From assembly GCF_055900595.2 (NCBI RefSeq), contig NZ_CM148325.1: 64,000 nucleotides of DNA; one strand, given 5' to 3'. Below the pieces are notes generated by a model. That model was not told the origin of the DNA. It was given only the letters and a program-made list of their open reading frames with translations, and ran no database searches. Below, piece after piece: positions 6,207 through 17,231 of the stretch. Position 1 is the stretch's first letter. Every line of letters begins with the position of its first letter. A program made the translations under genes and the position numbers.

Positions 6207-6240
6207 ATGGCCGCCATGTGGCGGCCTGAATTATTTTTTA
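6207..6240. terminator. bidirectional terminator candidate between convergent yjiA and brnA
   Basis: GGCCGCCATGTGGCGGCC hairpin flanked by T-runs on both strands. Coordinates approximate. Confidence 0.45.
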
Positions 6241-6533
6241 TTCTGATCGCGCAGCATCGCTTCACGTAAAATTGCGTTCAGGCGAGTTTGATAGCCTTTA
6301 CCTGGTCGCTTCAACCATTCCATCACATCAGCATCAATACGCACCGAAGCCTGAGTTTTCAATGGCCGATAAAACTTACCGCGTTCTGCGTTAGACCATT
6401 GCTCATCGCTGGAAGGTGGGATATCACTGTAATCAATATCTTCGTCGGATTTATTCGCCAGCGCCTTCAGTTCGGCCTCATGCTGCACATCGAGTGTAGA
6501 GGAGGTCCCTCGTTTATGTTTAACCATGCTCAT
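6231..6533 (-). CDS. brnA: BrnA-like antitoxin
   Basis: In-frame start at MSMVKHKRG... (aa 48 of ORF 6231..6674) gives 100 aa. Lies downstream of and overlaps the BrnT-like gene by about 14 nt, the typical brnTA arrangement. Confidence 0.75.
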   Translation of the reverse strand: MSMVKHKRGTSSTLDVQHEAELKALANKSDEDIDYSDIPPSSDEQWSNAERGKFYRPLKTQASVRIDADVMEWLKRPGKGYQTRLNAILREAMLRDQNKK

Positions 6534-6807
6534 AGCGATTCCTCTCTTTACGATCTGCTTTTCGTGCTCTGATGATTCGAATAATTTCATTTCCGCTTTC
6601 GAAACGGATGGTATGCGCAACCAGAATAACCACGATGCCGTAAACCAGGCCGATTGTCTGCCAGCGATACTCACCGTTTTCTATGCGATCTTGCTGTGAC
6701 AAATGTTGTGGATCATCAAACACTAACACCGCATCTTCAAAGCGGATGCCATGTTTCACCCGATTACCTTTGGCCTTGTTTGCATCCCATTTAAACTCCA
6801 TTGGCAT
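6520..6807 (-). CDS. brnT: BrnT-like toxin (DUF497 ribonuclease family)
   Basis: ORF track 6520..6852; product contains MPMEFKWDANKAKGNRVKHGIRFEDAVLVFDDP, the conserved BrnT N-terminus. Start chosen at MPMEF (aa 16); aa 13 or aa 18 are alternatives. Confidence 0.75.
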   Translation of the reverse strand: MPMEFKWDANKAKGNRVKHGIRFEDAVLVFDDPQHLSQQDRIENGEYRWQTIGLVYGIVVILVAHTIRFESGNEIIRIIRARKADRKERNRYEHG

Positions 6808-7003: not shown

Positions 7004-8170
7004 GTGAAAAACTACAAAGTTATTACTCCGCTTTTTCCTACCTATGCGCAAGTTAAGGCTATGATGAAAGCCGTATCAGGCTATTCCCTGAAAGCGGTGC
7101 GCAATATGATTACTGCCATTCACGAGCAAACCGGAACGCCGCAAAAACCCGTTGACTGGTCGGAACCTGACCTGTGGATCAGCGAACGCTTAACGGGTGA
7201 AGATGCCGACATCGCCCGTCGTATTTGGGATACCGATAATCACATATTGAACCCGCGCCACAGCTACGGCTGCTACTTATTCCTTAACTATCCCCAGTTT
7301 GAGCTGATGGAAAGCACGCCAGACGATACCTGGCAGCCCACCTCGCGCGGGCAAAAATTCCTGCAAGATGACGAAAAAACGCTGCGTTCACTGGACGATC
7401 AGGAAGGCATTCTGCAACTTCTTGAACTGTTGGCAGGCCGTGAAATGTCGCGCCGCGCCGATTTATTGCCGGAATGGCAGGCCTTTTTGCATCAACATTC
7501 AAAATTCGCGTCTGCCAGTTCGGTGAAAAGCACACTCTACTCCCGACTCTATAATCTTATCGACCGTGACATGGTTACTCGCGAAGGTATGAGCTATCGC
7601 ATCACCGATACCGGGCGCGCCTGGCTTGGAAAAGCGTTGCCGGCACGAAAAAGCGATCCGCGTAAAGAGCTGCTGGAAGCGGTGAAACGCTACAACGAGC
7701 AGCAAAAAGAGCTGCTGCGCGAGCAAATCAGCACGATGAACCCGTACAAATTTGAGCAACTGGTCGGTCAATTACTGGAAGCAATGGGCTACGAGCAGGT
7801 CGAAGTGACCAAAGCCTCAGGCGATAAAGGCGTGGACGTGATTGGTCAGGTGCAGGTCGGCATCACCACCATTACAGAAGTGGTGCAGGTCAAAAGAATG
7901 CAGAACACTATCACTCGCCCGTATATCGACCAGTTGCGCGGGGCGTTGCCTTACCACAAAGCCATTCGCGGTACGCTCATCACCACCGGGAAATTTGCGG
8001 CGAAATGTGCAGAAGCGGCGCTCTTTCCGGGGGCAGCGCCCATTACGCTTATCGACGGCGATCGCTTACTGGAACTGTTAATCGAAAATAACGTCGGCAT
8101 TCGCCGCAGCAATGCAGTGGAATTGCTGGATGTAGATTTGCAGTTGTTTGATGAGCTGGAGATGGATTAA
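7004..8170 (+). CDS. mrr: Mrr-family Type IV restriction endonuclease (longer than K-12 Mrr)
   Basis: 388 aa; C-terminal Mrr catalytic-domain motifs (GDKGVDVIG ... VVQVKR ... LITTGKF) seen in the translation. The ORF track M corresponds to a GTG start preceded by AAGGGA. N-terminal two-thirds does not match K-12 Mrr as I recall it. Confidence 0.7.
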   Translation: MKNYKVITPLFPTYAQVKAMMKAVSGYSLKAVRNMITAIHEQTGTPQKPVDWSEPDLWISERLTGEDADIARRIWDTDNHILNPRHSYGCYLFLNYPQFELMESTPDDTWQPTSRGQKFLQDDEKTLRSLDDQEGILQLLELLAGREMSRRADLLPEWQAFLHQHSKFASASSVKSTLYSRLYNLIDRDMVTREGMSYRITDTGRAWLGKALPARKSDPRKELLEAVKRYNEQQKELLREQISTMNPYKFEQLVGQLLEAMGYEQVEVTKASGDKGVDVIGQVQVGITTITEVVQVKRMQNTITRPYIDQLRGALPYHKAIRGTLITTGKFAAKCAEAALFPGAAPITLIDGDRLLELLIENNVGIRRSNAVELLDVDLQLFDELEMD

Positions 8171-8233
8171 AGGGCGAAATCTGCCGTCTCTACCATTACA
8201 ATAGCGACCCAATTTATCTGAACAGAGTTCATC

Positions 8234-9853
8234 ATGGCCAAAGCACCAACTAAAAAAGCCAAAGCAAAGAAAGGCTTTGAAGAAACATTATGGGATACCG
8301 CAAACCAACTTCGCGGTAGCGTTGAGTCTTCCGAATACAAGCACGTGGTGTTGAGCCTCGTGTTCCTGAAATTCATCAGCGATAAGTTTGAAGCACGCCG
8401 CAAAAAAATGATTGCCGATGGGCAAGCTGACTTCCTTGAGATGGAAGTGTTCTACCAGCAGGACAACATTTTCTACCTGCCGGAAGAGGCGCGCTGGTCA
8501 TTTATCAAACAAAATGCCAAACAGGACGATATTGCGGTTCGTATTGACACCGCCCTCTCGACCATTGAGAAACGTAACCCAACCCTGAAAGGCGCGCTGC
8601 CAGACAACTACTTCAGCCGTCAGAATCTGGAAACCAAAAAACTGGCGTCACTGATTGATACCATCGACAACATCGAAACGCTGGCACACGAAACTGACGT
8701 TGAAACGTTATCGAAAGAAGACCTGGTCGGACGCGTTTACGAATACTTCCTCGGTAAGTTTGCCGCAACTGAAGGCAAAGGCGGTGGTGAGTTCTACACG
8801 CCAAAATGTGTGGTTACACTGTTAACAGAAATGCTCGAACCCTTCCAGGGCAAAATTTATGACCCGTGCTGCGGCTCGGCGGGGATGTTTGTGCAGTCAG
8901 TGAAGTTTGTCGAGAGCCATCAGGGTAAAAGTCGTGATATCGCGCTGTATGGTCAGGAACTGACAGCCACGACGTATAAACTGGCAAAAATGAACCTCGC
9001 TATTCGCGGTCTTTCAGCTAACCTCGGCGAACGCCCGGCAAACACTTTCTTTAGCGACCAGCACCCGAACCTGAAAGCCGACTACATTCTAGCGAACCCG
9101 CCGTTCAACCTGAAAGACTGGCGTAATGAAGCCGAATTAACCAAAGATCCACGTTTTGCCGGTTATCGTATGCCGCCAACCGGTAACGCCAACTACGGCT
9201 GGATTTTGCATATGCTCTCCAAGCTGTCGGCTAACGGCACAGCAGGTTTTGTGTTGGCAAACGGATCGATGAGTTCTAACACCAGCGGCGAAGGCGAGAT
9301 CCGTGCACAGATGATCGAAAATGATCTGATTGACTGCATGATCGCCCTACCTGGACAGTTGTTTTACACCACGCAGATCCCGGTGTGTTTATGGTTTATG
9401 ACCAAATCGAAGGCTGCCGATCCGGCCAAAGGTTATCGTGATCGTCAGGGCGAGACGCTGTTTATTGATGCGCGTAACCTCGGCACCATGGTTAGCCGCA
9501 CAACTAAAGAGTTAACGACGGAAGATATTGCCACAATCGCCGATACCTACCATGCCTGGCGCAGCACGCCGGAAGAACTGGCTGCGCGGATTGCGCGTGG
9601 TGACAGCAAGCTGGAAAAATATGAAGACCAGGCAGGCTTCTGCAAAGTTGCGACCCTGCAAGATATTAAAGATAACGACTACGTTCTGACACCGGGCCGC
9701 TATGTGGGTGCAGCCGAGCAGGAAGAAGACGGCGTGGCATTTGAGACGAAAATGCATGAATTGTCGAAGACGTTGTTTGAGCAGATGAAGCAGGCGGAAG
9801 AACTGGATCGTGCGATTCGCCAGAATCTGGAGGCGCTGGGTTATGGGGAGTAA
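8234..9853 (+). CDS. hsdM: Type I restriction-modification methyltransferase subunit HsdM
   Basis: 539 aa; N6-adenine methyltransferase motifs GEFYTP (X), DPCCGSAGMF (I) and NPPFN (IV) present in the translation. Confidence 0.9.
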   Translation: MAKAPTKKAKAKKGFEETLWDTANQLRGSVESSEYKHVVLSLVFLKFISDKFEARRKKMIADGQADFLEMEVFYQQDNIFYLPEEARWSFIKQNAKQDDIAVRIDTALSTIEKRNPTLKGALPDNYFSRQNLETKKLASLIDTIDNIETLAHETDVETLSKEDLVGRVYEYFLGKFAATEGKGGGEFYTPKCVVTLLTEMLEPFQGKIYDPCCGSAGMFVQSVKFVESHQGKSRDIALYGQELTATTYKLAKMNLAIRGLSANLGERPANTFFSDQHPNLKADYILANPPFNLKDWRNEAELTKDPRFAGYRMPPTGNANYGWILHMLSKLSANGTAGFVLANGSMSSNTSGEGEIRAQMIENDLIDCMIALPGQLFYTTQIPVCLWFMTKSKAADPAKGYRDRQGETLFIDARNLGTMVSRTTKELTTEDIATIADTYHAWRSTPEELAARIARGDSKLEKYEDQAGFCKVATLQDIKDNDYVLTPGRYVGAAEQEEDGVAFETKMHELSKTLFEQMKQAEELDRAIRQNLEALGYGE

Positions 9854-11207
9854 GTTTCAACTAATTTTATTAGATAATGTGGCCGAGGTAATCGACTCTA
9901 GACATAAAACCCCCAATTACACAGAAACCGGCTACCCAATGGTTCGTGTTGTCGATATTAAAAATGGTGAATTAGATTTAAAGAATACAAAGAGAGTCAC
10001 AAAGGATATATACGAGGACTTTTCAAAAGGACGATCTCCACAGATTGGAGATCTCATTATTTCCCGAGTAGGCTCATATGGGAACATATCCTACGTTTCA
10101 AAAAATGAAAAATTTTGCCTAGGGCAAAACACTGCATTTATTATCCCAAATGAAAAAAATAGCTATCTATATTATGCTTTAATATCTCCTTTTGTACAAC
10201 AACAAATTAACGACATGGCTGTCGGTGCTGTACAAAAAACAATTAGTTTAAAAAGCATTAAAAATTTAAAAATTCCGTACCCAGAGTTAAATATAAGAAA
10301 TATTATTTCTAAAAAATTAAGAGTTATTGATAATAGGATAAGTACTAATGATAAAATAAATCAAACCCTGGAAAAAATGTCCCAAACCCTGTTCAAATCC
10401 TGGTTTGTGGATTTTGATCCGGTGATTGATAACGCTCTGGATGCAGGAAATCCAATCCCGGAAACCCTGCAATCTCGTACCGAATTGCGTCAAAAAGTAC
10501 GTAATAGTACAGATTTTAAACCGCTTCCGGCGGAAATTCGCTCGCTTTTCCCAAGTGAATTTGAAGAAACGGAGTTGGGTTGGGTGCCAAAGGGCTGGAC
10601 GCTGAAGTCTGTAGCAAAATCCATAAATATAAATCCTAGTCTAAAATTACCAAAAAATAAAATCGCAAAGTATGTTGATATGAAATCTTTACCTACTCAA
10701 GGATATTCAATATCAGATATTATTGAAAAGCCATATTCAGGGGGAGCGAAATTCCAAAATAACGATACTTTATTCGCTCGGATAACTCCATGCCTAGAAA
10801 ATGGTAAAACAGGATTTGTTGATTTTTTAGATGAAAAAGAGACTGCGTTTGGCTCTACTGAATTTATAGTGATGCGAGGTACTCCTCAAGTACATTATTT
10901 GTATGTGGCTTGTTTAGCCCGAGAAAGTAATTTCAGGTTACATGCAATACAAAACATGATCGGTTCATCCGGCCGCCAACGGGTACAGAATAGCTGCTTT
11001 GATAGCTTTTATATTGCAATACCAACACCTGCTGTAATGAGCTTATTTTCAGGAAAAGTCAGTAGTTACTTTGATAAAATGTATTTCTGTAATTTGGAAA
11101 ACAAATCCCTGACAGCCCTCCGCGACACCCTGCTCCCGAAACTCATCTCCGGCGAGCTATCCCTGGAAGATCTTCCGGATCTCACCACCGATACAGAAGC
11201 CGCATAA
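9843..11207 (+). CDS. hsdS: Type I restriction-modification specificity subunit HsdS (two TRDs)
   Basis: ORF track 9810..11207; start set at in-frame MGSKFQL (aa 12), overlapping the hsdM stop. Two AT-rich variable regions separated and followed by conserved spacer segments (LFKSWFVDFDP ..., LRDTLLPKLISGEL). Confidence 0.85.
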   Translation: MGSKFQLILLDNVAEVIDSRHKTPNYTETGYPMVRVVDIKNGELDLKNTKRVTKDIYEDFSKGRSPQIGDLIISRVGSYGNISYVSKNEKFCLGQNTAFIIPNEKNSYLYYALISPFVQQQINDMAVGAVQKTISLKSIKNLKIPYPELNIRNIISKKLRVIDNRISTNDKINQTLEKMSQTLFKSWFVDFDPVIDNALDAGNPIPETLQSRTELRQKVRNSTDFKPLPAEIRSLFPSEFEETELGWVPKGWTLKSVAKSININPSLKLPKNKIAKYVDMKSLPTQGYSISDIIEKPYSGGAKFQNNDTLFARITPCLENGKTGFVDFLDEKETAFGSTEFIVMRGTPQVHYLYVACLARESNFRLHAIQNMIGSSGRQRVQNSCFDSFYIAIPTPAVMSLFSGKVSSYFDKMYFCNLENKSLTALRDTLLPKLISGELSLEDLPDLTTDTEAA

Positions 11208-11301
11208 CGCATTTTGCCCCTGTAAAATCAGGGGCTTTCTGGTAAGGTTTTCTACTGATACGGGAATGCTTACCAGAAATTAGCCAGGGTTGGAGCGCGA
11301 T

Positions 11302-14300
11302 ATGAGTCTCTCTTTCAGTGAAGCAAAATTAGAACAAGCGATCATTGAACTGTTACAGGATCAGGGATATCAACACCTGATCGGCGATAATGTCCCACGT
11401 TCAAGTCTCGATCAGGTCATTATCGAAGACGATCTCCGTCATTATTTAGCGGCACGCTACCAGCCTGATGGCATTACTGAAGAAGAGATTCAGCGACTGA
11501 TCAAACAGTTCACCACGCTCCCCGCTTCCGATCTTTATGAAAGCAACAAAACATTTTGTCGCTGGCTGGCAAATGGTTTTCTGTTCAAACGCGACGATCG
11601 GCAACAAAAAGATCTCTATATTGAATTGCTCGACACCCGGCATCTACCTGCCGCACTGCGCCAGATATTTGACGCCGAAGATGTCCCGTTGCAACAGGCG
11701 GCGGAACTCCCGCCCTCCTATATTAATCCGCCGCTTAACCGGATTAAGATTGTTAACCAGCTTAAAATCTCTGGTAAAGATAATCAGACTCGTATTCCTG
11801 ACGGCATTCTCTATATCAACGGTCTGCCACTGGTCGTCTTTGAATTTAAAAGTGCGGTGCGCGAGCAGGATGCCAGTATTGGCGATGCCTGGAAGCAGCT
11901 CTGTAAACGCTATCGCCGGGATATTCCGCAACTGTTTATCTACAACGCGCTCTGCATTATTAGCGATGGCGTTAATAACCGGATGGGCAACCTGTTTGCG
12001 CCCTATGAATATTTTTACTCATGGCGCAAAGTCACCGGTAATGAAAACCGTGAACAGGACGGAATTCCGTCATTGCACTCAATGATTCAGGGGCTGTTTC
12101 ATCCGGTACGTCTGCTGGATGTGATTAAAAACTTTATCTGCTTCCCGGATAAAGCCAAGCACGAAGTAAAAATTTGCTGCCGTTATCCGCAGTACTATGC
12201 CGCCCGCAAACTCTATTACAGCATCAAGCAAGCGCGTAAACCTTTCGGTAGCGGTAAAGGCGGCACCTACTTTGGCGCAACGGGCTGTGGCAAAAGTTAC
12301 ACCATGCAATTTTTAACGCGTCTTTTGATGAAGAGCGTGGAGTTTGCCAGCCCGACCATTGTTTTGATCACCGACCGCACCGATCTGGACGATCAGCTTT
12401 CTGCGCAAATGTGCAATGCCAAAAATTACATTGGCGACGACACCATCGTTCCTGTTACCAGCCGTGAAGATTTGCGTAATCAACTGGCGGGACGCAATAG
12501 TGGCGGTGTATTCCTGACAACGATCCATAAATTCACCGAAGACACCGAACTCCTTTCTGAACGCAGCAATATCATTTGCATCTCGGACGAAGCACATCGC
12601 AGCCAGGTTAACCTCGACCAGAAAGTCATCGTCGATAAAGAAAGCGGAAAAGTGCGCAAAACTTATGGCTTTGCGAAATACCTGCACGATTCACTGCCAA
12701 ACGCCACCTATGTTGGCTTTACCGGAACTCCGATTGACGCAACACTCGATGTCTTCGGTGAGGTGATCGACAGTTACACCATGACCGAATCCGTTCAGGA
12801 TGAAATCACTGTACGCATCGTGTACGAAGGCCGTGCGGCTAAAGTGATCCTGGACTCCAGCAAACTGGAAGAAGTCGAAAAGTATTACGAAGAGTGCGCA
12901 AACGCAGGCACCAATGAGTGGCAAATCGACGAAAGCAAAAAAGCCACCGCAACCATGAATGCGGTACTGGGTGATGAAGATCGGTTAAAAGCCCTCGCGG
13001 AAGATTTTGCTAAACATTATGAAAAACGCGTAGCCGAAGGTTCCACCGTAAAAGGCAAAGCCATGTTTGTTTGTGCCAGCCGTGAAATTGCCTGGGATTT
13101 CTACCGTCAGCTTAAAGCTATTCGCCCTGCCTGGTATGAAGTGAAGCAAGCCCCCGATGGCGTCGTCCTGACAGAACAGGAGCAAAAAGAGTTACCGCCT
13201 TCTGAAATGGTGAAGATGGTCATGACGCGCGGTAAAGATGACGACGAGGCGCTTTATGATTTACTGGGCACAAAAGAATATCGTAAAGAGCTGGATAAGC
13301 AGTTCAAAAACGCTAAATCGAATTTCAAAATTGCCATTGTTGTTGATATGTGGCTGACCGGTTTTGACGTTCCTGAACTGGATACCATCTATATTGATAA
13401 GCCCTTACAAAAACATAACCTTATCCAGACCATTTCTCGCGTTAACCGTAAACTGGAAGGCAAAAGTAAAGGGTTAGTGGTGGACTACATCGGCATTAAA
13501 AGTCAGATGAACCAGGCACTGGCAATGTATTCCCGCATTGATGCCACCAACTTTGAAGATATTCAGCAATCGGTAATCGAAGTTAAAAACCATCTCGATT
13601 TGTTGGGGCAAGTCTTTTACGAATTTGACAGTCGGGATTATTTTAGTGGTGAGCCACAAGCGCAATTATCCTGCCTCAACCGCGCGGCGGAATTCGTTCT
13701 GAGTACCCAGAAAGTTGAACGTCGTTTTATGGGACTGGTTAAACGCATGAAAGCCGCCTACGACGTCTGCTGCGGCAGCGAAGCATTATCACAGACAGAA
13801 CGTGACTATATTCACTATTATCTTGCTGTTCGTTCAATTGTTTTCAAACTGACGAAAGGTGACGCACCGGATGTTACCCAGATGAATGCACGCGTTCGCG
13901 AAATGATTGCAGAAGCGTTAAAAGCTGATGGCGTAGAAGAGATTTATTTTCTTGGCGATAAAAAAGCGGAATCCATCGATATTTTTGACGAAGATTATCT
14001 GGCGCGAATTAACAAGATCAAACTTCCGGCAACGAAGATCCAGTTATTACAAAAATTACTGGAAAAAGCAATCAGCGACTTCAAGAAAGTGAACCAGTTG
14101 CAAGGGATTAACTTCACCCGCCGCTTCCAGGCGATTATAGATCGTTATAATGAGCGGCGAGAAGATGATGTACTCAACGGTGAAGAATTCGATACATTCA
14201 GTCAGGAAATGACCGATATTATCTATGATATTAAAACCGAAATGGGTACCTGGGCCGACTTAGGCATTGATATTGAAGAAAAAGCCTTTTTCGACATTCT

Positions 14301-14565
14301 TGCTCATATGCGCGATAAATATCAGTTCACCTATGACGATGAAAAAATGCTGTCACTGGCAAAAGAGATGAAAAGCGTGGTTGACAACACATCGAAATAT
14401 CCTGACTGGAGTAAACGCGATGATATTAAAGCGAAACTGAAAGTTGAACTTATTCTGCTTCTACACAAGCATAAGTTCCCGCCAGTAGCGAATGATGATG
14501 TTTATATGGGTGTGCTGGCACAGGCAGAGAATTTTAAAGAACACCATATGAGTGCTTTAAATTAA
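11302..14565 (+). CDS. hsdR: Type I restriction enzyme R subunit HsdR
   Basis: ORF track 11290..14565; helicase motifs GATGCGKSYT (Walker A) and ISDEAHRS (DEAH box) seen. Start placed at second in-frame ATG (MSLSF), which has GGAG upstream; 11290 is the alternative. Confidence 0.9.
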   Translation: MSLSFSEAKLEQAIIELLQDQGYQHLIGDNVPRSSLDQVIIEDDLRHYLAARYQPDGITEEEIQRLIKQFTTLPASDLYESNKTFCRWLANGFLFKRDDRQQKDLYIELLDTRHLPAALRQIFDAEDVPLQQAAELPPSYINPPLNRIKIVNQLKISGKDNQTRIPDGILYINGLPLVVFEFKSAVREQDASIGDAWKQLCKRYRRDIPQLFIYNALCIISDGVNNRMGNLFAPYEYFYSWRKVTGNENREQDGIPSLHSMIQGLFHPVRLLDVIKNFICFPDKAKHEVKICCRYPQYYAARKLYYSIKQARKPFGSGKGGTYFGATGCGKSYTMQFLTRLLMKSVEFASPTIVLITDRTDLDDQLSAQMCNAKNYIGDDTIVPVTSREDLRNQLAGRNSGGVFLTTIHKFTEDTELLSERSNIICISDEAHRSQVNLDQKVIVDKESGKVRKTYGFAKYLHDSLPNATYVGFTGTPIDATLDVFGEVIDSYTMTESVQDEITVRIVYEGRAAKVILDSSKLEEVEKYYEECANAGTNEWQIDESKKATATMNAVLGDEDRLKALAEDFAKHYEKRVAEGSTVKGKAMFVCASREIAWDFYRQLKAIRPAWYEVKQAPDGVVLTEQEQKELPPSEMVKMVMTRGKDDDEALYDLLGTKEYRKELDKQFKNAKSNFKIAIVVDMWLTGFDVPELDTIYIDKPLQKHNLIQTISRVNRKLEGKSKGLVVDYIGIKSQMNQALAMYSRIDATNFEDIQQSVIEVKNHLDLLGQVFYEFDSRDYFSGEPQAQLSCLNRAAEFVLSTQKVERRFMGLVKRMKAAYDVCCGSEALSQTERDYIHYYLAVRSIVFKLTKGDAPDVTQMNARVREMIAEALKADGVEEIYFLGDKKAESIDIFDEDYLARINKIKLPATKIQLLQKLLEKAISDFKKVNQLQGINFTRRFQAIIDRYNERREDDVLNGEEFDTFSQEMTDIIYDIKTEMGTWADLGIDIEEKAFFDILAHMRDKYQFTYDDEKMLSLAKEMKSVVDNTSKYPDWSKRDDIKAKLKVELILLLHKHKFPPVANDDVYMGVLAQAENFKEHHMSALN

Positions 14566-14811
14566 TTATGAAGGCCGGATAATTCAATAATTATTCGGCT
14601 TACTCATTTATAAATATGGTAAAAACATCATAACAATATCTATAAATCATAGTTAAAAAAATCACGCTAACTCATTAAAAATATAAGTATTTTCACATTA
14701 TGGGTAAAAATACCATTCTCCTTTTGAGCTTAACAAATACAGACTCTATCCATTCATAACAGATCCGTGCATAATTTCATTTATCGCAGCACAACCAAAA
14801 CACAACACAAC

Positions 14812-14926
14812 CATCACATCACATCACATCACATCACATCACATCACATCACATCACATCACATCACATCACATCACATCGCATCACATCGCATCACATC
14901 ACATCGCATCACATCGCATTACATCA
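14812..14926. repeat. pentanucleotide microsatellite, about 23 units of CATCA with CATCG/CATTA variants
   Basis: Read directly: (CATCA)n runs uninterrupted from about 14812, with CATCG and CATTA variant units toward the 3' end, in the AT-rich intergenic region between hsdR and the downstream S-M module. Confidence 0.9.
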
Positions 14927-15220
14927 ACTTAACTTAAGTTAATAAATTTAAAACATATAACGCACAAAATTGGTCGTCTGATCTTTAGCGGAAAAAATCA
15001 TGACTGTAAAGTCATCATGTATTAACTACTTTTCCAGATATCACACCATTAAAAAAAATAAAAAAAATCAATTAGTTATAAAATTTTCAAACATAACACA
15101 TAACATTAATCTGATGCTCTCCAAAAAAATTAAGCAGTGCAGGGTGACAACCCCATAGCAGTACGCTACCTTACTGAAAAATTACTTAATACGATACTGA
15201 AAGTTAGAAGGAGCCACACC

Positions 15221-15391
15221 ATGAGGAAAAAGAAAGGGTTAAACCGAGTTATTTGCTTGTTTTTGATAACAATTTTATCACATTTAGTGTCTGATGATGA
15301 TATCCTATTATTTCAGTTAGAGGATCTGTCAAAAGCAAATACCTCTATGGGTATTCATCTTTCCGTTGATTTCAAACATGAGACCAAATGA
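15221..15391 (+). CDS. small ORF (56 aa) translationally coupled to the downstream half-S gene; hypothetical
   Basis: In-frame ATG (aa 29 of ORF 15137..15391) preceded by AGAAGGAG at 7-nt spacing; stop overlaps the next start as ATGA. Product MRKKKGLNRVICLFLITILSHLV... has a basic N-terminus and one hydrophobic stretch. No family recognised. Confidence 0.35.
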   Translation: MRKKKGLNRVICLFLITILSHLVSDDDILLFQLEDLSKANTSMGIHLSVDFKHETK

Positions 15392-15969
15392 TTATGAAAA
15401 ATCTATCAGAGATAGCATATGTTTTTGGTGGACACTCATTTCGTACCAAAGCTGAAGCTGCAACAGGTTGCATCAAACTTATTCAGATAAAAGATATACA
15501 GGCAGGCATATTTGGTGATTTCTCGTCACTTCCTTTTGCAGATCTTTCAGAAGAAAAACTAAAATTCAACCTAAAAACAAATGATATTCTTTTACCTTTA
15601 AGAGGCGAAAGGATAGCAGCAATGATGATAGATAACGAAAATAATGTTGCAGTTACTACAACGAATCAAATTGCCATTATAAGAATTAATAGCAATTTGA
15701 TCACTCCAGAGTATTTGTTATATTTTCTAAATGCACCGAAAGGTATTAATCTGATAAATGAACTACAAGGTAACGGATTGGTTACAAACCTTAGCATAAA
15801 AAAACTTACAACATTAACATTACCGATTCCATCATTGGATATTCAATATGAAGTTATTAACCTTCATAACATGTGGACAAAACAAAAAGAGACCTTATGT
15901 AGTTTAATAGAAAATGGTTCTGCATTGTGTCATGCAACAATCAATAAGTTAATCTACAAAGGAGAGTAA
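15388..15969 (+). CDS. half-size (single-TRD) Type I-like specificity subunit (HsdS-like)
   Basis: 193 aa; begins like a target-recognition domain (LSEIAYVFGGHSF) and ends with the conserved TRD-distal segment (ITPEYLLYFLNAPKGINLINELQGNGLVTNLSIKKLTTLTLPIP). AT-rich codon usage. Followed 3 nt later by the MTase gene. Confidence 0.7.
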   Translation: MIMKNLSEIAYVFGGHSFRTKAEAATGCIKLIQIKDIQAGIFGDFSSLPFADLSEEKLKFNLKTNDILLPLRGERIAAMMIDNENNVAVTTTNQIAIIRINSNLITPEYLLYFLNAPKGINLINELQGNGLVTNLSIKKLTTLTLPIPSLDIQYEVINLHNMWTKQKETLCSLIENGSALCHATINKLIYKGE

Positions 15970-15971
15970 AT

Positions 15972-17231
15972 ATGAAAATACAAGAATTTATAAGCATATT
16001 ACAATCTATCCCCTGCAATTCCCTGGATAAATACCAGAAAATGCTTATTTGTTTTGAAGCTACTGTACTAACTTATTTACATAAGGACTCTGCCAAGAAA
16101 ATTATATCAGTAAGTGAAATGGATATTGAACATATTTACAGACACTCGCCGTCATTAAATAAAAACAAAGTAACATGGGATGAGTTTTCTTATATTTTTT
16201 CAGATATAATCTTTCATATAAAGTCCTCTAACATGGATGTCAATAAATATATATCAAATATATTTCAACACCTTTGTTACGATTATCATCACAAAAAATT
16301 CTCTAAAATAGATATTATTAATATAATCACCTCGAATATTGAGCAACTAAGACCTCTATCTCAAAGGCATCATACTCCTAATGAGTTGGTTGAATTAATG
16401 AGTAAAATAGTCAATATCCAAGATGGTGATATTTTTTATGATCCTGCATGTGGTTCAGGTGAGTTCATTTCTGCAATGTTTAATAAAAATGTCATGATAT
16501 ATGGTACTGAAAGCATCATAGAAAGAGCTAAAATATCAAAATTAAAAATGCTCGCAACCGGAAATAATCCTTTAAATATTACGACGCCATATTTTAACGA
16601 TAATAATCTACCTGAAAAATTTGATATTATTTTATCCAACCCCCCTTTCTCTCTAAAAATACCTGAAAATATGCAAAAAAAAATTTGCATTTATGGAGAA
16701 CCACCTGTTTCAAATGCTGATTTTATATTTTTACAATTCTGCATTTACAAACTAAAAAATAATGGATGCGCTGCTATCATCATGCCGGACAGCATTTTAT
16801 TTAGAAGTGGAAAAGAACAAGAAATACGTAAATCATTTATTGAGAAAGGGCATATTTCCACCATTATTTTTTTACCGAAAGGTATTTTTAAAAACACTTA
16901 TGTACCAACAAGCATTTTGCTACTACGCAAGCAAAATGACTATGACGACATCCTATTCATTGATGCAAGAGATAAAACAACCTTCAACAACGATCTTATA
17001 ATTCATTTATTTACTGAACGTGAAAATAATAAGTTATCGAAGATTGTTACAAAATCAGAAATTGCTGATAATGATTATAACTTGTCAGCAGCATTATATT
17101 TTAAAGAAGAAACAGAAATACCAGAAATAGAACAATTAATAGACAATCAAAAATACCTCAGCAGTAAATTACAGGATTTACATTATGATTTCATTCACAC
17201 TATATCCAGATTATCACCAAAAAATGAATAA
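15972..17231 (+). CDS. compact gamma-class N6-adenine DNA methyltransferase (HsdM-like, 419 aa)
   Basis: Motif I DPACGSGEF and motif IV NPPFS in HsdM-like order and spacing; AGGAG precedes the ATG. Strongly AT-rich. About 130 N-terminal residues unassigned. Confidence 0.8.
   Translation: MKIQEFISILQSIPCNSLDKYQKMLICFEATVLTYLHKDSAKKIISVSEMDIEHIYRHSPSLNKNKVTWDEFSYIFSDIIFHIKSSNMDVNKYISNIFQHLCYDYHHKKFSKIDIINIITSNIEQLRPLSQRHHTPNELVELMSKIVNIQDGDIFYDPACGSGEFISAMFNKNVMIYGTESIIERAKISKLKMLATGNNPLNITTPYFNDNNLPEKFDIILSNPPFSLKIPENMQKKICIYGEPPVSNADFIFLQFCIYKLKNNGCAAIIMPDSILFRSGKEQEIRKSFIEKGHISTIIFLPKGIFKNTYVPTSILLLRKQNDYDDILFIDARDKTTFNNDLIIHLFTERENNKLSKIVTKSEIADNDYNLSAALYFKEETEIPEIEQLIDNQKYLSSKLQDLHYDFIHTISRLSPKNE

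What the first reader, a model, noticed from the sequence alone, without database searches (positions are those of the whole stretch)
7004..14565. Alternative immigration-control-region content: long Mrr-family enzyme plus a non-EcoKI Type I system in M-S-R order
The hsd genes run hsdM-hsdS-hsdR, and the HsdM and HsdR N-termini do not resemble EcoKI as I recall it, suggesting another Type I family resident at the same locus. The adjacent Mrr-family gene encodes 388 aa rather than the 304 aa of K-12 Mrr, with a conserved C-terminal catalytic domain but a different, longer N-terminal region, implying different modified-DNA specificity. Inside hsdS, two AT-rich target-recognition domains are embedded in higher-GC conserved spacers, the signature of TRD shuffling.
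Basis: partly seen in the sequence, partly recalled or inferred. Interest (0 to 1): 0.45.

Follow-up and report, generated by a model that had tools for sequence, protein, structure and literature searches.

The report
Common alternative E. coli restriction gene block
This stretch is a well-known, common alternative version of the E. coli "immigration control region": an intact Type I restriction-modification system of a different family from the K-12 one (almost certainly Type ID), next to a longer Mrr-type nuclease. It is correctly described but ordinary.

Summary
Window 7004-14565 holds four co-directional intact genes:
- a 388-aa Mrr-family nuclease
- hsdM (539 aa)
- hsdS (454 aa, starting at 9843)
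- hsdR (1087 aa, starting at 11302)

They lie between brnT/brnA-yjiA and yjiS-yjiR, which is the E. coli immigration control region (ICR).

HsdM and HsdR are only 24-27% identical to EcoKI (Type IA) and to the CFT073 EcoAI-type system (Type IB). They are only distantly similar to EcoR124 (Type IC). A 2025 review finds only Types IA, IB and ID at this locus. By elimination this is the Type ID family (StySBLI/EcoR9I/KpnAI). I could not obtain a prototype sequence for a direct test.

The block is common. About 16% of 5,426 complete E. coli genomes carry it, including Nissle 1917.

The Mrr homologue shares only its C-terminal catalytic domain (31% identity) with K-12 Mrr. Its N-terminus is modelled as two helical, winged-helix-like domains. 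PADLOC already lists it as candidate PDC-S02.

hsdS shows textbook reassortment of its target-recognition domains (TRDs). The exact TRD pair is in none of the complete genomes.

Verdict: already known, low interest. One side observation lies just downstream: a rarer AT-rich module of a small ORF, a half-size S gene and a methylase gene, preceded by a hypervariable (CACAT)n tract.

The parts
6231..6533 (-). brnA antitoxin gene (context: left edge of the variable block, after yjiA)
   Evidence: RefSeq annotation of the syntenic MB52 and L26 loci, transferred by an offset of +899. ORF.
6520..6807 (-). brnT toxin gene (context)
   Evidence: Review PMC12707154 lists brnAT among the toxin-antitoxin systems that accompany ICR Type I systems.
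7004..8170 (+). Long Mrr-family nuclease gene (388 aa). It has two N-terminal helical/winged-helix-like domains (~aa 14-120 and 124-211), a linker helix (219-244) and an Mrr_cat domain (243-359) with an intact D274/D278...E292-x-x-Q295-x-K297 motif.
   Evidence: Pfam Mrr_cat 3.8e-29. PADLOC PDC-S02 2.4e-207. 31% identity to K-12 Mrr over the C-terminal 173 aa only. AF2 model with pLDDT 84. Foldseek hits to FokI, MspJI, AspBHI and BpuJI. Motif residues invariant in 37 homologues.
8234..9853 (+). hsdM, Type I methyltransferase subunit (539 aa). SAM motif DPCCGSAG at aa 210 and NPPF at aa 288.
   Evidence: TIGR00497 hsdM 7e-51 and PADLOC MTase_I 4e-193. 24% identity to EcoKI M and 27% to the CFT073 IB M. 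Motifs.
9843..11207 (+). hsdS, specificity subunit (454 aa). It overlaps hsdM by 11 nt.
   Evidence: PADLOC Specificity_I 3e-124. Pfam Methylase_S twice. Start taken from the RefSeq annotation of syntenic loci.
9855..10355 (+). hsdS TRD1 (aa ~5-171). AT-rich (19-40% GC). Has no near match in 5,426 complete E. coli genomes.
10356..10604 (+). hsdS central conserved region (aa ~172-254). 42-53% GC. Shared by ~868 E. coli alleles.
10605..11105 (+). hsdS TRD2 (aa ~255-421). 26-42% GC. Near-identical to the TRD2 of strains L26, KE55 and GPEC673, which carry a different TRD1.
11106..11207 (+). hsdS C-terminal conserved region (aa ~422-454). ~59% GC.
11216..11235 (+). GC-rich hairpin (7 bp stem, 6 G-C pairs) followed by TTTCTGG, in the 94-nt hsdS-hsdR gap. 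It is terminator-like, which would suggest hsdR has its own promoter. This is pattern evidence only.
11302..14565 (+). hsdR, Type I restriction/translocase subunit (1087 aa). Nuclease motif PD(166)...E-F-K, Walker A GATGCGKS (325), DEAH (429), TGTP (474), QTISRVNR (709).
   Evidence: TIGR00348 hsdR 1e-139 and PADLOC REase_I score 1716. 25% identity over 219 aa to EcoKI R, and essentially no match to the IB R. Motifs.
14572..14601 (+). Terminator-like hairpin directly after hsdR.
14801..14926 (+). Outside the finding: (CACAT)n microsatellite, ~22-25 units here.
   Evidence: Unit number ranges from 4 to 26 among 13 genomes.
15221..17231 (+). Outside the finding: AT-rich (29-32% GC) three-gene module. 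It comprises a 56-aa ORF (15221-15391), a half-size S subunit (15388-15969, 193 aa) and an N6-adenine methylase without the HsdM_N domain (15972-17231, 419 aa). It occupies the place that symE holds in most strains with this block.

Best explanation
The region is the Type ID version of the E. coli/enterobacterial immigration control region. It holds two independent DNA-level defences.

(1) A complete, apparently functional Type I restriction-modification system in hsdM-hsdS-hsdR order. An M2S1 complex would methylate a bipartite target set by the two TRDs of HsdS. Adding HsdR would give an enzyme that, at unmethylated targets, translocates DNA using ATP and cuts at a distance.

(2) A stand-alone Mrr-family Type IV (modification-dependent) nuclease. 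Its PD-(D/E)xK/QxK catalytic domain is fused to two N-terminal winged-helix-like DNA-binding domains, where K-12 Mrr has one. It would cut incoming DNA that carries foreign modification and so escapes the Type I enzyme.

New Type I specificities arise by recombination within the conserved hsdS spacers, which swaps TRDs.

Shown here: gene content, intact motifs, family-level distances, synteny, population frequency and the TRD mosaic. Inferred: enzymatic activity, the target sequence, the modification dependence of the Mrr homologue, and the label 'ID', which rests on elimination.
For: - Locus identity and synteny with annotated genomes come.
- All four ORFs are intact with their catalytic motifs.
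- Family models match: hsdR TIGR00348 at 1e-139, hsdM, Specificity_I and Mrr_cat.
- The system is not IA or IB: 24-27% identity for M and at most 25% for R.
- It is not IC: only 88 and 135 bits to EcoR124 R and M.
- Review PMC12707154 reports that ICRs of 8,424 enterobacterial genomes carry Type IA (14%), IB (11%) or ID (12%), which sums to about the 36% given for all Type I. It reports no IC, and lists brnAT, symE and rpn toxin-antitoxin systems and Type IV genes as companions.
- The same 90%-identity HsdR cluster includes Salmonella (1088 aa) and Klebsiella members, the genera of StySBLI and KpnAI.
- Staphylococcal hsdMSR operons are reported as closest to StySBLI.
- The Mrr-like gene, hsdM and hsdR occur in 879, 872 and 862 of 5,426 complete E. 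coli genomes, so they travel as one block. Nissle 1917 has the identical layout.
- The TRD mosaic is shown.
Against: - There is no direct sequence comparison with StySBLI, EcoR9I or KpnAI.
- No methylome or restriction data exist for this strain, so activity and target are unknown.
- No experimental evidence was found that the 388-aa Mrr homologue is modification-dependent. PADLOC lists it only as a candidate (PDC-S02).
- The promoter-like sites found are no more numerous than chance, so the transcription units are not established.
Confidence: 0.85

Rival explanations
1. The long Mrr homologue is not an autonomous Type IV enzyme. It would instead be an accessory or latent effector functionally coupled to methylation-based defence systems. 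In this reading it is held in check by the Type I complex, or cooperates with it, and is unleashed when that system is inhibited. The precedent is the anticodon nuclease PrrC embedded in the EcoprrI operon.
For: - In 73 species-representative loci, at least 27 have two or more of hsdM/S/R within 10 kb. These are usually on the same strand with gaps of 0-100 bp, and the Mrr gene often lies between hsdM and hsdR (examples).
- The partner Type I systems belong to different families: EcoEI_R_C-type HsdR in some loci and 787-812-aa HsdM in others.
- Five of ten neighbours sampled from loci without a Type I system matched defence genes. Three of these belong to methylation-based systems: BREX BrxHI, BREX BrxL and Type III Res.
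- In E. coli it is co-directional with hsdM and 63 nt upstream of it, and it co-occurs with hsdM almost 1:1.
- The PrrC precedent is described in PMC3874165.
Against: - About half of the loci show no Type I gene within 10 kb, so the link is not obligate.
- The protein has its own DNA-binding domains plus a complete nuclease domain, like stand-alone Mrr, MspJI and FokI-type enzymes.
- Type IV genes cluster with modification-protected systems in defence islands in general, which explains the linkage without any physical coupling.
- K-12 Mrr, also next to hsdR, acts independently.
Confidence: 0.1
2. The Type I system belongs to a family other than ID, either Type IE (KpnBI) or an unnamed family, and merely occupies the ICR.
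For: - No prototype ID sequence could be compared.
- The best solved-structure match for HsdM is an archaeal protein (3khk, 1e-133). This shows the family is broad and not defined here by a named enterobacterial prototype.
Against: - The survey in PMC12707154 accounts for all ICR Type I systems as IA, IB or ID (14+11+12 against 36%).
- This block's frequency of 16% in E. coli fits one of those three, and IA and IB are excluded by sequence.
- From my own recollection, which I did not check here, KpnBI HsdM is much longer (~870 aa) than this 539-aa protein.
Confidence: 0.05
3. The block is a decayed or silent remnant, with genes present but no restriction or modification activity.
For: No expression or methylation data are available. 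ICR genes are often pseudogenised: CFT073 has a truncated GmrSD-like gene, MB52 a split rpn gene, and L007 a split Mrr-like gene.
Against: - All four ORFs are full length with every catalytic motif intact.
- Identical proteins are found in hundreds of contigs.
- Lengths match the family consensus of 388/539/~450/1087 aa across genera.
Confidence: 0.04

Closest known systems
Type ID restriction-modification systems (StySBLI of Salmonella Blegdam, EcoR9I of E. coli ECOR9, KpnAI of Klebsiella)
   Same: - Chromosomal Type I systems that occupy the ICR as alternatives to IA and IB.
- Found in Escherichia, Salmonella and Klebsiella, and this HsdR's 90% cluster spans all three genera.
- Relatives elsewhere are reported as hsdMSR operons.
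   Different: No difference is demonstrated. The direct identity test could not be run. The hsdS allele here (TRD1 plus TRD2) differs from all alleles in 5,426 complete E. coli genomes, so its target sequence is presumably different from the characterised ones.
EcoKI (Type IA) with EcoKMrr, in the E. coli K-12 ICR
   Same: Same chromosomal slot between yjiA and yjiS/yjiR. Same logic of a Type I system plus an Mrr-family Type IV enzyme. Same subunit architecture and catalytic motifs.
   Different: - Gene order and orientation differ. K-12 has hsdR, then hsdM-hsdS, with mrr divergent from them. Here the order is mrr-like, hsdM, hsdS, hsdR, all co-directional.
- HsdM is 24% identical and HsdR 25% identical over 219 aa.
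- HsdR is 1087 aa here against 1170 aa in K-12.
- Mrr shares only the C-terminal 173 aa (31%). It is 388 aa against 304 aa, with two N-terminal domains instead of one.
- There is no mcrBC here.
ICR of E. coli Nissle 1917 (NZ_CP058217.1) and ~860 other complete E. coli genomes
   Same: Identical layout: yjiA, brnA/brnT, 388-aa restriction endonuclease, hsdM (539 aa), hsdS, hsdR (1087 aa), then yjiS, yjiR and rpn. The Mrr-like gene is 96% identical at the DNA level.
   Different: Nissle and most strains have symE after hsdR. The window has the AT-rich module (56-aa ORF, half-size S, methylase) there instead. The hsdS TRDs differ.
PADLOC candidate defence gene PDC-S02; Mrr/MspJI-type Type IV enzymes
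   Same: Full-length match to PDC-S02 model PDLC04796 (2.4e-207). The Mrr_cat nuclease fold matches the catalytic domains of MspJI and AspBHI.
   Different: MspJI and AspBHI use an SRA-like reader domain and K-12 Mrr uses a single winged helix. This protein has two helical/winged-helix-like N-terminal domains that resemble the tandem recognition domains of FokI and BpuJI. No biochemical data were found.
EcoprrI-PrrC, and BrxU in BREX loci (extra effectors embedded in methylation-based defence operons)
   Same: Homologues of the long Mrr are often embedded inside Type I operons or appended to BREX or Type III loci. This parallels PrrC in EcoprrI and GmrSD/BrxU in BREX.
   Different: There is no evidence here of physical or regulatory coupling. 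PrrC is an RNA (anticodon) nuclease, whereas this protein is a DNA-nuclease-type enzyme with its own DNA-binding domains.

Membership tests
Type I restriction-modification system (generic) | Three subunits: HsdM (HsdM_N plus N6_Mtase with NPPF), HsdS with two TRDs separated by conserved regions, and HsdR with a PD-(D/E)xK nuclease plus an SF2 motor. | tested here: met
   (family models). (motifs). (Pfam domains of the near-identical E. fergusonii proteins: HsdM_N, N6_Mtase, Methylase_S, HSDR_N, ResIII, T1RH-like_C).
Type IA (EcoKI/EcoBI) | HsdM and HsdR highly similar within the family (~70-90% or more, against <~30% between families; PMC10030836, PMC2481252). | tested here: not met
   HsdM is 24% identical. 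HsdR is 25% identical over 219 of 1087 aa.
Type IB (EcoAI/EcoEI) | HsdM and HsdR highly similar to EcoAI-type proteins. The CFT073 system is 99% identical to EcoAI-family members per PMC2481252. | tested here: not met
   HsdM is 27% identical over 364 aa. HsdR gives only a 42-aa match at E 0.02. Sizes are 810/489/589 aa against 1087/539/454 aa.
Type IC (EcoR124I/EcoprrI) | HsdM and HsdR highly similar to EcoR124I. Usually plasmid-borne or at other loci. | tested here: not met
   phmmer gives only 88 bits (R, best stretch residues 148-514) and 135 bits (M) to EcoR124 chains. The review found no IC at the ICR. The M-S-R gene order is shared with what I recall for IC, a recollection I did not check here.
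Type ID (StySBLI/EcoR9I/KpnAI) | High sequence identity of HsdM and HsdR to a prototype member. | not testable with these tools
   Prototype sequences and the defining papers (PMC60208, PMC98998, PMC524312) are not held. Assignment rests on elimination.
Type ID (StySBLI/EcoR9I/KpnAI) | Resides at the enterobacterial ICR as an alternative to IA and IB. | tested here: met
   Lies between yjiA/brnTA and yjiS/yjiR. The review lists ID at 12% of ICRs. This block is in 16% of E. coli genomes.
Type ID (StySBLI/EcoR9I/KpnAI) | Subunit complementation within the family, and target adenines 6 bp apart. | not testable with these tools
   This needs genetics or methylome data. Table 1 of PMC12707154 gives the 6-bp correlate.
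Mrr-family Type IV restriction endonuclease | Mrr_cat (PD-(D/E)xK/QxK) nuclease domain with catalytic residues intact. | tested here: met
   Pfam PF04471 at 3.8e-29, residues 243-359. D274, D278, E292, Q295 and K297 are invariant in 37 homologues. Fold matches to MspJI and AspBHI.
Mrr-family Type IV restriction endonuclease | Orthology with EcoKMrr: same N-terminal winged-helix reader (Mrr_N) and same length. | tested here: not met
   No similarity outside the C-terminal 173 aa. No Mrr_N hit. 388 aa against 304 aa. It is a separate subfamily, conserved over its full length down to ~40% identity across phyla.
Mrr-family Type IV restriction endonuclease | Cleavage depends on DNA modification. 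| not testable with these tools
   Needs restriction assays against differently modified DNA.
PADLOC PDC-S02 (candidate single-gene defence) | Full-length match to the PDC-S02 profile. | tested here: met
   PDLC04796: E 2.4e-207, residues 1-386 against profile positions 1-383 of 390.

The most novel reading that the evidence does not exclude
The long (two-reader-domain) Mrr subfamily may be a dedicated add-on of methylation-based self/non-self systems (Type I, Type III, BREX) rather than a free-standing Type IV enzyme. In this reading, its activity or licensing depends on the partner system. It could act as a second-line nuclease that fires when the Type I complex is blocked by anti-restriction proteins, by analogy with PrrC in EcoprrI. 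The E. coli ICR block would then be a four-gene functional unit.
Probability: 0.1. Interest if true: 0.5.

Novelty: already known. Interest (0 to 1): 0.12.

Why it matters
It matters little as a discovery. The locus, the family alternatives at it and TRD reassortment are textbook, and the block is present in a sixth of complete E. coli genomes, including the probiotic Nissle 1917.

In practice it tells a user of this strain three things:
- The strain will restrict unmodified incoming DNA at a so far unassigned bipartite target.
- It will probably restrict some methylated DNA through a non-K-12 Mrr.
- Its hsdS allele is a TRD combination not seen in the complete-genome set.

Two side observations could merit a small follow-up:
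- The consistent embedding of this Mrr subfamily in Type I, Type III and BREX loci across phyla.
- The orphan S+M module with a hypervariable (CACAT)n tract, which is a candidate for variable methylation.

Tried and rejected
- **Direct Type ID test.** I tried to read Titheradge 2001 (PMC60208), Murray 2000 (PMC98998), Sibley & Raleigh 2004 (PMC373321) and Chin 2004 (PMC524312). None is held. Searches for EcoR9I, KpnAI and the Nissle methylome gave no sequence, gene order or motif to use. Cluster names carry only generic annotations.
- **Mrr homologue by sequence.** NCBIfam has no model for the Mrr homologue or for brnT/brnA. A PDB sequence search found nothing for the Mrr homologue. The fold search was needed to place it.
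- **Non-coding RNAs.** Rfam at gathering thresholds found nothing in 1-24,000. In particular there is no symR, consistent with symE being absent here.
- **Transcription signals.** The promoter scan gave 26 sites against 26.1 expected by chance. I make no claim about promoters. Terminator-like hairpins after hsdS and after hsdR are noted as patterns only.
- **Obligate Type I partner.** I considered and rejected the idea that the long Mrr always partners a Type I system, because about half of the homologue loci lack any detectable hsd gene within 10 kb.
- **Downstream S2/M2 pair sharing HsdR.** I considered that the downstream S2/M2 pair might be a second specificity module using the Type ID HsdR. 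This is unlikely. M2 is only 27% identical to HsdM and lacks HsdM_N. The module also occurs without any hsdR in L007 and L008.
- **PHROGs.** This library gave nothing informative for the 56-aa ORF or for the Mrr N-terminus.

Full report
**1. What is there**

The window is Escherichia chromosome. Around the finding the genes run btsT-yjiX-yjiA, then brnA/brnT on the minus strand. Four co-directional genes follow:
- a 388-aa "restriction endonuclease" (7004-8170)
- hsdM (8234-9853, 539 aa)
- hsdS (9843-11207, 454 aa, overlapping hsdM by 11 nt)
- hsdR (11302-14565, 1087 aa; the open frame begins at TTG 11290)

After these come an AT-rich 2.7-kb segment, then yjiS, yjiR and an rpn gene.

This is the immigration control region (ICR). 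In K-12 the same slot between yjiA and yjiS holds mrr, hsdR, hsdM, hsdS, symE and mcrBC in another orientation.

**2. Are the genes intact?**

- HsdM has the SAM motif DPCCGSAG and NPPF.
- HsdR has a PD...EFK nuclease motif, Walker A GATGCGKS, DEAH, TGTP and QTISRVNR.
- The Mrr homologue has GVD...EVVQVK.
- Family models agree: TIGR00348 hsdR at 1e-139, hsdM and Specificity_I profiles, and Pfam Mrr_cat at 3.8e-29.
- The exact Mrr, HsdM and HsdR proteins are already in public collections, on hundreds of contigs.

**3. Which Type I family?**

| Compared with | HsdM | HsdR |
|---|---|---|
| EcoKI (Type IA) | 24% identical | 25% over only 219 residues |
| CFT073 EcoAI-type system (Type IB) | 27% identical | essentially no match |
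| EcoR124 chains in the PDB (Type IC) | 135 bits | 88 bits |

Published rules put within-family identity at about 70-90% or more, and between-family identity below about 30% (PMC2481252; PMC10030836). So IA, IB and IC are excluded.

The 2025 EcoSal Plus review surveyed 8,424 enterobacterial ICRs. It reports only Type IA (14%), IB (11%) and ID (12%), which together account for the 36% with any Type I system. It reports no IC, and lists brnAT, symE and rpn toxin-antitoxin systems and Type IV genes as companions (PMC12707154).

The block here has brnTA on one side and rpn beyond yjiR. Its HsdR 90%-identity cluster includes Salmonella (1088 aa) and Klebsiella members, the genera of StySBLI and KpnAI. 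Staphylococcal hsdMSR operons are reported as closest to StySBLI.

I therefore assign it to Type ID by elimination. I could not make the direct comparison, because neither the prototype sequences nor the defining papers are available here. That step is inference. I put it at roughly 0.9.

**4. How common is it?**

At >=80% coverage and 95-99% identity, the three genes occur in complete E. coli genomes as follows:

| Gene | Genomes of 5,426 |
|---|---|
| mrr-like | 879 |
| hsdM | 872 |
| hsdR | 862 |

That is about 16%, and the near-equal numbers show they travel as one block. E. coli Nissle 1917 has exactly this layout, with symE after hsdR. The arrangement is therefore ordinary.

**5. hsdS and TRD shuffling**

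Overall hsdS is 37% GC, against 51% for hsdM and 46% for hsdR.

| hsdS region | Residues (approx.) | GC |
|---|---|---|
| TRD1 | 5-171 | 19-40% |
| Central conserved region | 172-254 | 42-53% |
| TRD2 | 255-421 | 26-42% |
| C-terminal conserved region | last ~33 | ~59% |

I aligned the allele with two others of the same family. The conserved regions are near-identical in all three. TRD2 is near-identical to that of strain L26, while TRD1 differs. Strain MB52 differs in both TRDs.

Across the complete-genome set, 868 genomes match only the conserved regions. A few (KE55, GPEC673, L26) also share TRD2. None shares TRD1, and none has the full allele.

The specificity here is a combination not represented among complete genomes.

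**6. The Mrr homologue**

Only residues 216-383 align with K-12 Mrr, at 31% identity. The first ~215 residues have no counterpart, and Pfam finds Mrr_cat but not Mrr_N.

The protein belongs to a tight full-length family of ~385-400 aa. The family is conserved down to about 40% identity in Proteobacteria, Bacteroidota, Chloroflexota, Bacillota, Planctomycetota and others. It has strongly conserved N-terminal motifs (QTGTPQNPVDW, NPRH) as well as the catalytic residues.

An AlphaFold2 model has mean pLDDT 84, and above 90 over most of residues 11-210. It shows two helical domains with beta-hairpins (about 14-120 and 124-211), a long linker helix, and the nuclease domain.

Foldseek finds FokI, MspJI, AspBHI and, more weakly, BpuJI and N.BspD6I. 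These are nucleases built from tandem winged-helix-type recognition domains plus a cleavage domain, or Mrr-like catalytic domains. PADLOC recognises the protein over its full length as the candidate defence gene PDC-S02.

The most likely function is a stand-alone modification-dependent (Type IV) endonuclease whose reader module differs from that of EcoKMrr. That its specificity differs is reasonable but untested.

**7. Linkage of this Mrr subfamily with methylation-based systems**

Four homologue loci sampled outside the window's own Escherichia block all lay inside or next to Type I operons of different families.

I then scanned one genome per species and recovered 73 loci. At least 27 carry two or more of hsdM/S/R within 10 kb. 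These are usually on the same strand with gaps of 0-100 bp, and the Mrr gene often sits between hsdM and hsdR. Six more loci have a single hit. This is a lower bound, because detection used a 20-protein phmmer panel and some contigs are short.

I sampled ten neighbours from loci without Type I genes. Five matched defence models: BREX BrxHI, BREX BrxL, a Type III Res subunit, a PDC-M23B/Hachiman-type helicase and an LmuA-like protein.

The subfamily is thus a frequent add-on of methylation-based defence loci, but not an obligate one. This fits the general pattern that Type IV enzymes accompany modification-protected systems. It also leaves open, at low probability, a PrrC-like functional coupling.

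**8. Downstream of the finding (14566-17231)**

In most strains symE follows hsdR. Here a 29-32% GC segment replaces it. It holds three genes:
- A 56-aa ORF (15221-15391). It has a strong Shine-Dalgarno sequence, and its stop overlaps the next start (ATGA).
- A half-size S subunit (193 aa, one TRD).
- A 419-aa N6-adenine methylase with DPACGSGE and NPPF but no HsdM_N domain.

No restriction gene belongs to the module.

Only 1 of 5,426 complete E. coli genomes has it (MB52). It is nevertheless on hundreds of draft contigs of E. coli, E. fergusonii and cryptic Escherichia.

Versions at 45-49% identity, with the same three genes, occur in other enterobacterial ICRs. These include loci without any hsd genes. 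It is therefore probably an independent orphan methyltransferase of the M2S2 type that recognises a symmetric target.

Upstream lies a (CACAT)n tract. Its unit number is 4, 4, 4, 5, 5, 5, 8, 8, 20, 22 (this window), 23, 24 and 26 in 13 genomes. In the long alleles, the pure run varies while the interrupted 3' end stays the same. This is clear slipped-strand variation. Whether it affects expression is unknown. The tract ends ~295 bp before the small ORF, and no promoter-like site was found in between.

**9. Verdict**

The observation and interpretation are right. The thing described is a known, common ICR haplotype: an intact Type I system of the non-K-12, almost certainly ID, family, plus a PDC-S02-type long Mrr. 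The only strain-specific element inside the finding is the hsdS TRD combination.

Interest is low. The side observations in sections 7 and 8 are the only leads worth a modest follow-up.

Noticed in passing
window 14801-14926: A (CACAT)n microsatellite lies in the AT-rich spacer between hsdR and the downstream S/M module. The unit number is hypervariable among genomes carrying the module: 4, 4, 4, 5, 5, 5, 8, 8, 20, 22 (this window), 23, 24 and 26. The pure run changes while the interrupted 3' end stays the same. It might cause phase-variable expression, but it ends ~295 bp upstream of the first ORF and no promoter was identified.
   Followed up: partly
window 15221-17231: A conserved three-gene, R-less module at 29-32% GC: a 56-aa ORF with an N-terminal basic and hydrophobic segment and a conserved C-terminus G[IV]xLS[VI]DFKxExK, a half-size HsdS-like protein (193 aa), and an N6-adenine methylase without HsdM_N (419 aa). 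The genes show start/stop overlap or tight spacing. It replaces symE. It is present in 1 of 5,426 complete E. coli genomes but on hundreds of draft Escherichia contigs. Versions at 45-49% identity sit in other enterobacterial ICRs, some without any hsd genes. The function of the small ORF is unknown.
   Followed up: partly
loci L016-L088 (species-representative genomes), L011-L015: Homologues of the 388-aa Mrr protein are frequently embedded in Type I operons of several families, often between hsdM and hsdR with gaps of 0-25 bp. Others are appended to BREX (BrxHI, BrxL), Type III, or Hachiman-like/PDC-M23B loci. About half of the loci show no such neighbour within 10 kb.
   Followed up: partly
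window 6231-6807 (- strand): A brnT/brnA toxin-antitoxin pair lies between yjiA and the Mrr-like gene. It is conserved in the same place in MB52, L26, Nissle 1917 and L007. NCBIfam and PADLOC gave no hit for either protein.
   Followed up: no
L007 5851-6972 and L008 1205-2326: In an enterobacterial ICR that has the small-ORF/S/M module but no hsdMSR, the Mrr-like gene is split into 245-aa and 116-aa ORFs and is probably a pseudogene.
   Followed up: no
L011 5520-6482 (Kushneria indalinina): A TIR-domain gene sits between hsdS and hsdM of a Type I operon that ends with the long-Mrr homologue. This is another example of extra effectors inside hsd operons.
   Followed up: no
L006 5151-6998: A NERD plus UvrD-helicase gene (615 aa) lies directly after yjiA in another enterobacterial ICR variant, ahead of the small-ORF/S/M module and the Mrr-like/hsdMSR block.
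   Followed up: no
window 11216-11235 and 14572-14601: Terminator-like hairpins lie in the 94-nt hsdS-hsdR gap and just after hsdR. The first would imply a separate hsdR promoter, as I recall for Type IC systems. I did not test this further.
   Followed up: no
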